From: Escherichia coli
GTDB taxonomy: Bacteria > Pseudomonadota > Gammaproteobacteria > Enterobacterales > Enterobacteriaceae
Strand: one strand, 5' to 3'
NCBI RefSeq assembly: GCF_003334405.1
Contig: NZ_QOWM01000004.1
Length of the DNA stretch: 64,000 nucleotides
Shown here: positions 17,712-19,486 of the stretch, in pieces
Layout: each line of letters starts with the position of its first letter
Numbering within the stretch: position 1 is the stretch's first letter
Made by a program: the position numbers and the translations under genes
Notes under the pieces: generated by a model
The model's database searches: none
The model's input: the letters and a program-made list of their open reading frames with translations, nothing else
What the model was told of the DNA's origin: nothing

Positions 17712-18740
17712 ATGCGCGTACTGCTATTTTTACTTCTTTCCCTTTTCATGTTGCCGGCATTTTCGGCTGATAACCTGTTGCGCTGGCATGATGCGCAGCA
17801 TTTCACGGTGCAAGCCTCTACGCCGCTTAAAGCCAAACGCGCATGGAAACTGTGCGCGCTTTATCCCAGCCTGAAAGATTCATATTGGTTATCGTTGAAC
17901 TATGGTATGCAGGAGGCTGCTCGCCGCTACGGTGTGGATTTAAAAGTGCTGGAGGCAGGCGGCTACAGCCAGTTGGCTACCCAGCAAGCACAAATCGACC
18001 AGTGTAAACAGTGGGGCGCAGAGGCCATTTTGCTCGGTAGTAGCACGACCTCATTTCCCGACCTGCAAAAGCAGGTAGCAAGTCTGCCGGTGATCGAACT
18101 GGTAAATGCTATTGATGCTCCCCAGGTGAAAAGCCGCGTTGGTGTGCCCTGGTTTCAGATGGGCTATCAACCGGGGCGATATCTGGTGCAATGGGCGCAC
18201 GGTAAACCACTGAATGTGCTGTTGATGCCCGGACCCGATAACGCCGGGGGCAGTAAGGAGATGGTCGAGGGTTTTCGCGCAGCCATTGCCGGAAGCCCGG
18301 TGCGTATTGTTGATATTGCGCTTGGTGATAACGATATTGAAATCCAGCGTAACCTGTTGCAGGAGATGCTGGAACGCCATCCAGAAATCGACGTCGTTGC
18401 CGGAACGGCCATTGCGGCAGAGGCGGCAATGGGGGAAGGGCGTAACCTGAAAACGCCGCTTACCGTGGTGTCGTTTTATCTTTCACATCAGGTGTATCGC
18501 GGGCTGAAGCGGGGAAGAGTGATTATGGCTGCCAGCGATCAAATGGTCTGGCAGGGGGAACTGGCGGTTGAGCAGGCCATCAGGCAATTACAGGGGCAAT
18601 CGGTTTCTGATAATGTCAGCCCACCGATTTTAGTTCTGACGCCGAAAAATGCCGACCGTGAACATATTCGCCGCTCGCTGTCACCAGGGGGATTTCGTCC
18701 GGTCTATTTTTATCAGCACACATCAGCGGCTAAGAAATAA
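17712..18740 (+). CDS. torT: Periplasmic TMAO-binding protein
   Basis: Track ORF of 342 aa with signal peptide MRVLLFLLLSLFMLPAFSA; divergent from torS. Confidence 0.95.
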   Translation: MRVLLFLLLSLFMLPAFSADNLLRWHDAQHFTVQASTPLKAKRAWKLCALYPSLKDSYWLSLNYGMQEAARRYGVDLKVLEAGGYSQLATQQAQIDQCKQWGAEAILLGSSTTSFPDLQKQVASLPVIELVNAIDAPQVKSRVGVPWFQMGYQPGRYLVQWAHGKPLNVLLMPGPDNAGGSKEMVEGFRAAIAGSPVRIVDIALGDNDIEIQRNLLQEMLERHPEIDVVAGTAIAAEAAMGEGRNLKTPLTVVSFYLSHQVYRGLKRGRVIMAASDQMVWQGELAVEQAIRQLQGQSVSDNVSPPILVLTPKNADREHIRRSLSPGGFRPVYFYQHTSAAKK

Positions 18741-19405
18741 CCTTCACCATGTTGCGTCACCAGTAAATCCGCGCTGAGTTTATGACGTAAACGACGAATT
18801 AACACATCGACGGTGCGCAGGTCAGGGTTTTCCACCCGACGCGCAGAAAGCATACGTAGCAGACGTTCACGGCTGAGAATTTCGCCCGGATTCGTCACAA
18901 ATGCCACCAACATTTCATACTCTGCGCGGGTCAGTTTAATCGGCTCGCCATCCCGCTCCAGCGTATGGCGCGACACATTCAGGCAATAACCGGCAAAGCG
19001 ATAGCAGTTGTCCTGAGTGTGCGGTTGAGCTTGTCGCGCGAGGTCGATTCGCCAGAGCAGATTTTTCACCCGTACTACCAGTTCGCGCAGTTCCAGCGGT
19101 TTGGTGACGTAATCGTCTGCGCCCATTTCCAGCCCAACAATACGGTCAATCCGATCGCTGCGTCCGGTAACCAGAATAATCCCCACCGTTGAGCGTTCTC
19201 GCAGGGCGCGGGTTAACATCAGGCCATTTTCATCGGGTAAGTTGATATCCAGCAGAATTAAATCTACCGACTGATTCTGCATAATTTCCCGTAGCCCGGC
19301 ACCGCTCGCCGTAACGGAAACGGTATACCCCTCCTGAGTGAAGTAGGATTGTAATCGCGCCTGGGTAACCGGCTCATCTTCAACAATAACAATGTGATGT
19401 GGCAT
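18713..19405 (-). CDS. torR: Response regulator of the torCAD operon (OmpR family)
   Basis: Track ORF of 230 aa, MPHHIVIVEDEPVTQ; 3' end overlaps torT 3' end by 28 bp (convergent). Confidence 0.95.
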   Translation of the reverse strand: MPHHIVIVEDEPVTQARLQSYFTQEGYTVSVTASGAGLREIMQNQSVDLILLDINLPDENGLMLTRALRERSTVGIILVTGRSDRIDRIVGLEMGADDYVTKPLELRELVVRVKNLLWRIDLARQAQPHTQDNCYRFAGYCLNVSRHTLERDGEPIKLTRAEYEMLVAFVTNPGEILSRERLLRMLSARRVENPDLRTVDVLIRRLRHKLSADLLVTQHGEGYFLAADVC

Positions 19406-19423
19406 CAGAGGGTTTTACTCATT

Positions 19424-19486
19424 CTGTTCATATCTGTTCATATTCTGCCGTAAGCCGTTCATCCTGACCAGTGCCGCTGTTCATAT
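19424..19486 (+). promoter_or_regulatory. Four tor boxes (TorR binding decamers) of the torCAD promoter
   Basis: ctgttcatat at 19424-19433, 19434-19443 and 19477-19486; ccgttcatcc at 19455-19464; directly upstream of torC. Confidence 0.85.

What the first reader, a model, noticed from the sequence alone, without database searches (positions are those of the whole stretch)
18713..19486. torT and torR converge with a 28-bp 3' overlap; four tor boxes precede torC
Seen directly: the torT stop is at 18738-18740 and the torR stop at 18713-18715, so the two 3' ends overlap on opposite strands. Three perfect ctgttcatat decamers and one ccgttcatcc lie between torR and torC. This is the known architecture; convergent overlap could allow transcriptional interference.
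Basis: partly seen in the sequence, partly recalled or inferred. Interest (0 to 1): 0.15.

Follow-up and report, generated by a model that had tools for sequence, protein, structure and literature searches.

The report
Known E. coli torT/torR overlap, tor boxes
This is the well-known control region of the E. coli TMAO respiration genes, with two regulator genes whose tail ends overlap by 28 bases and four TorR binding sites in front of torC; every detail is confirmed but it is already annotated and published.

Summary
torT (17712-18740, +) and torR (18713-19405, -) converge and share 28 bp (18713-18740). CTGTTCATAT occurs at 19424, 19434 and 19477, and CCGTTCATCC at 19455, all between torR and the torC ATG (19535).

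The window is E. coli chromosome, with 2 mismatches in 7 kb against MG1655. RefSeq annotates the same overlap (b0994/b0995). The box sequences match the published TorR sites.

New detail from this work:
- The 28-bp overlap has exactly the same length in Escherichia, two Salmonella enterica subspecies and Providencia, although TorT is only 66-72% identical. It is absent or only 4 bp in Edwardsiella.
- It encodes a TorT tail that lies beyond the end of the match to the solved TorT chain.
- No intrinsic terminator pattern lies near it. A published Rho-termination region sits about 430 nt inside torT on the torR strand, so torR-strand transcripts probably cross the overlap.
- The overlap is no more conserved than its flanks, so nothing points to a regulatory role.
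- Box spacing of 10/21/22 bp is conserved as far as Vibrionaceae.

Side observation: the tandem box varies from 1 to 4 copies among complete E. coli genomes.

Verdict: already known, low interest.

The parts
14885..17629 (-). torS, the TMAO sensor histidine kinase (914 aa, GTG start)
   Evidence: ORF. NCBIfam NF008543 TorS scores 1906 bits against a cut-off of 982. RefSeq annotation agrees.
17630..17711 (.). torS-torT divergent intergenic region. Published as the IscR operator and the phage HK022 attachment site.
   Evidence: Coordinates. The function is from PMC6814406 and PMC10845959 and was not tested here.
17712..18740 (+). torT, the periplasmic TMAO-binding protein (342 aa, stop TAA at 18738-18740)
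   Evidence: NF008185 TorT scores 495 bits against a cut-off of 200. RefSeq b0994.
18713..18740 (.). 28-bp convergent overlap. It encodes TorT residues 335-342 plus its stop on the + strand, and TorR residues 222-230 plus its stop on the - strand.
   Evidence: The length is the same in Escherichia, Salmonella arizonae/diarizonae and Providencia.
18713..19405 (-). torR, an OmpR/PhoB-family response regulator (230 aa, stop TGA at 18715-18713)
   Evidence: NF008034 TorR scores 429 bits against a cut-off of 275. RefSeq b0995.
18281..18281 (-). Peak position of a published Rho-dependent termination region, antisense to torT and about 430 nt past the torR stop. The resolution is hundreds of nt.
   Evidence: PMC7815308 supplementary file 2 lists MG1655 1056830 (-) with Rho score 4.34 and p 2.2e-5. 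The minus-strand RNA here is C-rich and G-poor.
19424..19433 (+). tor box 1, CTGTTCATAT. With box 2 it forms the tandem high-affinity TorR site.
19434..19443 (+). tor box 2, CTGTTCATAT
19455..19464 (+). tor box 3, CCGTTCATCC. It matches 7 of 10 consensus positions and is a low-affinity site.
   Evidence: PMC9239176.
19477..19486 (+). tor box 4, CTGTTCATAT. It is the box nearest the promoter and ends 8 bp before the -10-like hexamer.
19495..19500 (+). TAAGAT, the -10-like hexamer of the torCAD promoter
   Evidence: PMC10845959 places the -10 within TTGCT(nnnn)AAGAT. ATAAGATC is conserved in Salmonella, Providencia and Edwardsiella. The simple promoter scan did not pick it up.
19535..20707 (+). 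torC, the pentahaem c-type cytochrome (390 aa)
   Evidence: NF011606 scores 884 bits against a cut-off of 455. RefSeq b0996.
20707..23253 (+). torA, the TMAO reductase. Its start shares 1 bp with the torC stop.
23250..23849 (+). torD, the TorA chaperone. The start is placed 4 bp inside torA, as in K-12 gene tables.
   Evidence: The ORF end is. NF003442 matches from residue 12 of the longer GTG ORF. K-12 coordinates are in the gene table of PMC7373196.

Best explanation
This is the chromosomal torS-torT-torR / torCAD locus of E. coli, which controls anaerobic respiration of trimethylamine N-oxide (TMAO).

**How the system works (established knowledge).** TorT binds TMAO in the periplasm and TorS phosphorylates TorR. 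TorR binds four direct 10-bp repeats, the tor boxes, between torR and torC. The tandem pair, boxes 1-2, is the high-affinity site. It lies next to the torR start, so it also represses torR. Boxes 3 and 4 are filled cooperatively and switch on the torCAD promoter, whose -10-like hexamer starts 9 bp after box 4.

**The overlap (partly shown here, partly inferred).** torT and torR meet tail to tail and share 28 bp. The torT reading frame runs past the end of its conserved fold into the last nine codons of torR.
- Shown here: the arrangement is old and fixed in length.
- Inferred: it is a compact coding arrangement, not a dedicated regulatory device.
- Inferred: there is no room for a terminator between the genes, so each transcript must run into the other gene. 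Rho probably stops it there, as published data indicate for the torR strand. Any collision or antisense pairing between these two weakly expressed genes is a by-product.
For: - **Identity.** Six NCBIfam equivalog hits score above their cut-offs. The segment has 2 mismatches in 7,001 bp against MG1655. RefSeq gene ends are the same.
- **Boxes.** There are three exact decamers against 0.17 expected. The sequences equal the published boxes, and box 3 is described as low-affinity and dependent on box 4 (PMC9239176).
- **Box conservation.** Boxes 3 and 4, the 10/21/22-bp spacing and the TAAGAT hexamer are conserved in Salmonella, Providencia and Edwardsiella. The boxes and spacing are also conserved in Grimontia. 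These loci were picked only by an exact match to boxes 1-2.
- **Overlap conservation.** It is exactly 28 bp in E. coli, E. albertii, E. whittamii, S. enterica arizonae and diarizonae, and two Providencia species, with TorT 66-72% identical to E. coli TorT in Salmonella and Providencia. It is 4 bp or a 7-bp gap in Edwardsiella.
- **TorT tail.** The TorR C-terminus GEGYFLA.. is conserved everywhere. The match between E. coli TorT and the solved V. parahaemolyticus TorT chain (3o1h_B, 304 residues) ends at E. coli residue 332, one residue before that chain's end. The overlap therefore encodes a tail beyond that match.
- **No extra constraint.** Against Salmonella, identity is 20/28 in the overlap, 30-31/40 in the torT flank and 28-29/40 in the torR flank.
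- **Termination.** No terminator-like hairpin lies near the overlap. A Rho-termination region lies on the minus strand inside torT (PMC7815308), and the RNA there is C-rich.
Against: - A length fixed at exactly 28 bp across three genera could reflect selection for the overlap itself, not only inheritance.
- The Rho data are low-coverage: 39 and 14 reads in the two 800-nt windows. They come from aerobic LB culture only.
- No 3' end for torT was found in any data set I could read.
- The primary papers on TorR footprints and torR autoregulation (Simon 1995, Ansaldi 2000, Jourlin 1996) are not held in the library. The roles of individual boxes therefore rest on secondary citations and on my own recall.
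Confidence: 0.88

Rival explanations
1. The 28-bp overlap is a functional coupling device of the excludon type. Convergent transcripts of torT and torR collide or pair, and RNase III cleaves the duplex. Expression of the TMAO-binding protein and of the response regulator would then be reciprocally tuned.
For: - The overlap length is conserved exactly across Escherichia, Salmonella and Providencia.
- No intrinsic terminator separates the genes.
- Minus-strand transcription appears to continue about 430 nt into torT before Rho-dependent termination.
- Convergent overlaps are a minority class in E. coli, 75 of 4,131 adjacent pairs (PMC4161906).
Against: - Nucleotide conservation is no higher in the overlap than in the flanks.
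- Edwardsiella has the same tor boxes and genes with no overlap or only 4 bp.
- Both genes are weakly expressed in the one published gene table I could read (PMC7373196), which limits collisions.
- The torT/torR pair did not turn up in the dsRNA or 3'-end supplements I could search beyond that gene table and the Rho region.
Confidence: 0.1
2. The overlap is an annotation or reading artefact. One of the two stops is mis-assigned, or the TorT tail arises from a sequencing error or a strain-specific frameshift.
For: The TorT tail, residues 333-342, has no counterpart in the solved Vibrio TorT chain. Edwardsiella TorT proteins end elsewhere.
Against: - The same stops are present in the window and in MG1655.
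- They are also present in every Escherichia, Salmonella arizonae/diarizonae and Providencia locus examined.
- The overlap is invariant in the four E. coli sequences aligned.
- At least 80% of window 17600-19600 is present in 5,412 of 5,426 genomes at 90-100% identity.
- The tail Q[HY]TS[AE]AKK is conserved at the protein level.
- The NCBIfam TorT model covers residues 1-339 of 342.
Confidence: 0.02

Closest known systems
E. coli K-12 torSTR-torCAD locus (b0993-b0998)
   Same: The gene order, gene ends, 28-bp torT/torR overlap, 129-bp torR-torC spacer and four box sequences are all the same. There are only 2 substitutions in 7,001 bp.
   Different: Nothing of substance. One of the two substitutions, at 19298, is a synonymous change in torR.
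Direct-repeat promoters of OmpR/PhoB-family regulators, such as the pho box bound by PhoB (from general knowledge)
   Same: A winged-helix response regulator binds head-to-tail direct repeats about one helical turn apart. The repeat nearest the promoter sits where a -35 element would be. TorR scores against the OmpR, PhoB and ArcA models below their cut-offs, as expected for a paralogue.
   Different: The repeat unit is a 10-bp decamer with a specific 10/21/22 spacing. The tandem distal pair doubles as the operator for the divergent regulator gene.
Excludons and other convergent 3'-overlapping transcription units (reviewed in PMC7154746; ExcludonFinder, PMC12288877)
   Same: The genes are convergent with no terminator between them, and transcription probably overlaps at the 3' ends.
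   Different: The coding sequences themselves overlap here, not only the UTRs. No reciprocal expression has been shown, and both genes act in the same pathway, not in opposing ones.

Membership tests
TorR-dependent torCAD promoter (tor boxes) | Four direct repeats of the decamer CTGTTCATAT in the torR-torC intergenic region, on one strand | tested here: met
   Three exact copies and one 7/10 copy lie at 19424, 19434, 19455 and 19477, all on the + strand. Exact copies number 3 against 0.17 expected.
TorR-dependent torCAD promoter (tor boxes) | Sequences equal the published boxes (1, 2 and 4 consensus; box 3 CCGTTCATCC) | tested here: met
   PMC9239176 quotes the same sequences.
TorR-dependent torCAD promoter (tor boxes) | Fixed spacing that keeps the boxes on one face of the helix | tested here: met
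   Start-to-start spacing of 10/21/22 bp is found in the Escherichia, Salmonella, Providencia and Grimontia loci and in two of four Edwardsiella loci. In the other two Edwardsiella loci box 3 has degenerated and boxes 2 and 4 start 43 bp apart. The same-face requirement itself comes from Ansaldi 2000, recalled and not read here.
TorR-dependent torCAD promoter (tor boxes) | Flanked by divergent torR and torC | tested here: met
   NCBIfam equivalogs for TorR and TorC score above their cut-offs. RefSeq annotation agrees.
TorR-dependent torCAD promoter (tor boxes) | TorR protein binds the boxes | not testable with these tools
   Published gel shifts for boxes 1, 2 and 4 are reported in PMC9239176. 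The original footprint papers are not held.
Convergent overlapping gene pair | Both reading frames are real genes and each stop lies beyond the other | tested here: met
Convergent overlapping gene pair | The overlap is retained in orthologous loci | tested here: met
   It is 28 bp in the Escherichia, Salmonella arizonae/diarizonae and Providencia loci examined. It is not retained in Edwardsiella, which has a 4-bp overlap or a 7-bp gap.
Excludon-type antisense regulation | Transcripts of the two genes overlap in vivo | tested here: inconclusive
   Only indirect evidence exists: a published Rho-termination region on the minus strand inside torT, with low read counts. No 3' end for torT was found.
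Excludon-type antisense regulation | Extra sequence constraint on the overlap beyond coding | tested here: not met
   Against Salmonella, overlap identity is 20/28. The flanks are 30-31/40 and 28-29/40.
Excludon-type antisense regulation | Reciprocal effect on expression of the two genes | not testable with these tools
   This needs genetics and strand-specific RNA measurements.

The most novel reading that the evidence does not exclude
The exactly 28-bp torT/torR overlap, conserved from Escherichia to Providencia, is selected because convergent read-through couples the levels of TorT and TorR. Rho ends that read-through inside the opposing gene. This coupling would contribute to the known cell-to-cell variability of torCAD induction. 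A related reading is that the 1-to-4-copy variation of the tandem tor box seen among E. coli genomes acts as a heritable tuning knob for torR autorepression and torCAD induction.
Probability: 0.1. Interest if true: 0.4.

Novelty: already known. Interest (0 to 1): 0.1.

Why it matters
The tor locus is a textbook two-component system, so confirming it adds nothing new in itself. This check adds three modest points:
- The overlap is old and fixed in length, but carries no extra sequence constraint.
- The torR-strand transcript probably ends by Rho action inside torT.
- The high-affinity TorR site varies in copy number among natural strains.

The last point could interest people who study variability in TMAO respiration. 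It can be tested with a simple allelic series.

Tried and rejected
- **Primary papers not held.** I could not read Jourlin 1996 (J Bacteriol) or Ansaldi 2000. Simon 1995 is in a subscription journal and I did not look it up.
- **Promoter and terminator scan of 17500-19700.** The counts were no better than shuffles and nothing lay near the overlap. MFE folds of both 3' regions showed no hairpin followed by a U-run.
- **Rfam scan of 14000-24500.** It found only a REP-derived naRNA4 after torD and nothing at the overlap or the boxes.
- **Published transcript maps.**
  - The SMRT-Cappable-seq supplements have no tor entries.
  - No supplement text is held for Conway 2014 or ExcludonFinder.
  - The p19 dsRNA paper gives only gene-level values, which are low for both genes.
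- **Extra boxes elsewhere.** The degenerate pattern CYGTTCATNY gave two further hits, at 21330 and 34084. That is the chance level: 6 found against 2.5 expected, and 7 of 100 shuffles reached 6. I set them aside.
- **Chance matches in other phyla.** Hits to the 20-mer in Bacteroidales, Lachnospiraceae, Clostridia and Synergistaceae assemblies had no tor genes nearby. I set them aside.
- **Literature on box copy number.** One search found nothing relevant. That does not show the variation is unreported.

Full report
**Observation**

The sequence and the mechanical ORF list show a 342-codon frame at 17712..18740 (+) that ends in TAA at 18738-18740. A 230-codon frame at 18713..19405 (-) ends in TGA, which reads as TCA at 18713-18715 on the + strand. 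Both translate cleanly.

CTGTTCATAT occurs three times in the 64-kb window, at 19424, 19434 and 19477, all on the + strand. Chance expectation is 0.17 copies, and none of 100 shuffles reached three. CCGTTCATCC lies at 19455. All four sites sit in the 129-bp spacer between the torR ATG (19405) and the torC ATG (19535).

**Identity**

NCBIfam equivalog models name the six genes TorS, TorT, TorR, TorC, TorA and TorD, each far above its curated cut-off.

The DNA is E. coli chromosome.
- At least 80% of 17600-19600 is present in 5,412 of 5,426 complete genomes.
- The 7-kb segment differs from MG1655 at two positions.
- RefSeq annotates the same ends in MG1655 (torT 1056261-1057289, torR 1057262-1057954) and in three other strains.

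So the overlap is part of the standard annotation.

**The boxes**

PMC9239176 states that boxes 1, 2 and 4 are CTGTTCATAT. It gives box 3 as CCGTTCATCC, a 7/10 low-affinity site that TorR did not shift on its own, and suggests that binding there likely depends on box 4. PMC10845959 places the torC -10 within TTGCT(nnnn)AAGAT, which is window 19487-19500. Box 4 therefore ends 8 bp before the TAAGAT hexamer.

From my own recall of Ansaldi et al. 2000 (PMID 10648521, not held):
- Boxes 1-2 cover the torR start site and mediate TMAO-independent autorepression.
- The high- and low-affinity sites must lie on the same helical face.

An independent check comes from a scan of one genome per species for the 20-mer formed by boxes 1-2, which returned 20 loci. 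In the tor loci among them, from Escherichia, Salmonella, Providencia, Edwardsiella and the vibrio relative Grimontia:
- Boxes 3 and 4 are recognisable. In Edwardsiella piscicida and E. anguillarum box 3 has degenerated.
- The start-to-start spacing is 10/21/22 bp wherever all four boxes are recognisable, and in those two Edwardsiella loci boxes 2 and 4 still start 43 bp apart.
- The ATAAGATC motif is conserved in the three enterobacterial genera other than Escherichia.

Selection was on boxes 1-2 only, so the rest is real conservation.

**The overlap**

I located the torT and torR stops in every locus that held both genes.

| Taxon | TorT identity to E. coli | torT/torR junction |
|---|---|---|
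| E. coli, E. albertii, E. whittamii | 94-100% | 28-bp overlap |
| S. enterica subsp. arizonae and diarizonae | 66% | 28-bp overlap |
| Providencia alcalifaciens, P. burhodogranariea | 70-72% | 28-bp overlap |
| Edwardsiella hoshinae | about 70% | 4-bp overlap |
| Edwardsiella ictaluri, E. piscicida, E. anguillarum | 64-80% | 7-bp gap |

The TorR C-terminus GEGYFLA[AS][DE]V[CYA] is conserved in all of them. The TorT tail Q[HY]TS[AE]AKK exists only where the overlap exists.

The match between E. coli TorT and the solved Vibrio parahaemolyticus TorT chain (3o1h_B, 304 residues) ends at E. coli residue 332, one residue before that chain's end. The overlap starts at the last base of codon 334, so it encodes a tail beyond that match.

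Against Salmonella, nucleotide identity is 20/28 in the overlap, 30-31/40 in the torT flank and 28-29/40 in the torR flank. Nothing beyond double coding is visible. For scale, PMC4161906 counts 75 convergent overlaps among 4,131 adjacent pairs in E. coli. The class is a minority but not rare.

**How transcripts end**

The pattern scan finds no terminator-like hairpin near the overlap on either strand, and the folds show none followed by a U-run.

Supplementary file 2 of PMC7815308 lists a Rho-termination region at MG1655 1056830 on the minus strand, classed as antisense to torT. The Rho score is 4.34 and p is 2.2e-5. This maps to window 18281, about 430 nt past the torR stop. The minus-strand RNA there is C-rich and G-poor, with C/G of 1.3-1.9.

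The simplest reading is that torR transcripts cross the overlap, become untranslated, and are stopped by Rho inside torT. Read counts are low and the resolution is coarse. I found no mapped 3' end for torT.

**Interpretation**

The possibility of interference is not excluded, but nothing supports a regulatory role. I rate the plain reading at 0.88: a known locus in which the overlap is an inherited compact arrangement. I rate an excludon-like coupling at 0.1 and an annotation artefact at 0.02.

**Side observation: box copy number varies**

One hit was 10 bp longer than the query. The alignment showed three tandem CTGTTCATAT units instead of two. I then ran queries built with 1, 3 and 4 tandem units against 5,417 complete genomes.

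| Tandem units | Total boxes | Genomes | Examples |
|---|---|---|---|
| 1 | 3 | 14 | two O157:H7 strains |
| 2 | 4 | about 5,310 (the remainder, inferred) | this window, MG1655 |
| 3 | 5 | 89 (69 at 99% or more identity, plus 20) | UTI89, NU14, UM146, O121:H19, other STEC |
| 4 | 6 | 4 | O26:H11 FWSEC0001 |

The alignment shows clean 10-bp steps with identical flanks. The change keeps the spacing from the last tandem box to box 3. By my reading of a CAGAAT -10-like hexamer on the minus strand (19448-19443), it also falls downstream of the torR promoter. It would therefore alter only the number of high-affinity TorR sites. The variant strains carry different serotypes and labels, which suggests recurrent slippage, but I did not build a tree. 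One literature search found no report of this.

**Verdict**

The feature is already known and of low interest.

Noticed in passing
window 19424-19443, with loci L002, L025, L026 and L027: The tandem tor box CTGTTCATAT (2 copies here) varies in copy number among 5,417 complete E. coli genomes. One copy occurs in 14 genomes (including O157:H7 PV15-279 and F3113), 3 copies in 89 (UTI89, NU14, O121:H19 and others) and 4 copies in 4 (O26:H11 FWSEC0001, MBT-5 and others). The steps are clean 10-bp units with identical flanks. The effect on torR autorepression and torCAD induction is unknown.
   Followed up: partly
window about 18281 (-), which is MG1655 1056830: A published Rho-dependent termination region lies antisense to torT, about 430 nt beyond the torR stop (PMC7815308 supplementary file 2). 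The local minus-strand RNA is C-rich and G-poor.
   Followed up: partly
window 17630-17711, the torS-torT spacer: Hit H14 (strain Z1323CEC0009) matches only from query base 41 (window 17640) and has two places in the record. That fits a prophage at the HK022 attachment site between torS and torT, which PMC6814406 reports in about 5% of E. coli genomes.
   Followed up: no
window 23861-23939 (-): A match to Rfam naRNA4 (RF02564, a nucleoid-associated noncoding RNA) lies just after torD, at 69 bits against a gathering score of 59.5.
   Followed up: no
L017 (Grimontia marina), bases 218-280 of the 414-bp torR-torC spacer: The same four-box pattern with 10/21/22 spacing occurs in a Vibrionaceae genome. 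The torR-torC spacer there is 414 bp, and no torT was found in the DNA held for this locus.
   Followed up: no
window 14763 and 19298: These are the only two differences from MG1655 in 7,001 bp. The one at 19298 is a synonymous change in torR codon 36. Strain 720632 and several others are 100% identical over 17600-19600.
   Followed up: no
window 20707 and 23250-23253: The operon also has same-strand overlaps. The torC stop and the torA start share 1 bp, and the torA stop and the torD start share 4 bp.
   Followed up: no
L003 (strain PRO_A-1474-6M-A_ESBL): torS is annotated as a frameshifted pseudogene in this clinical strain, while torT, torR and the boxes are intact.
   Followed up: no
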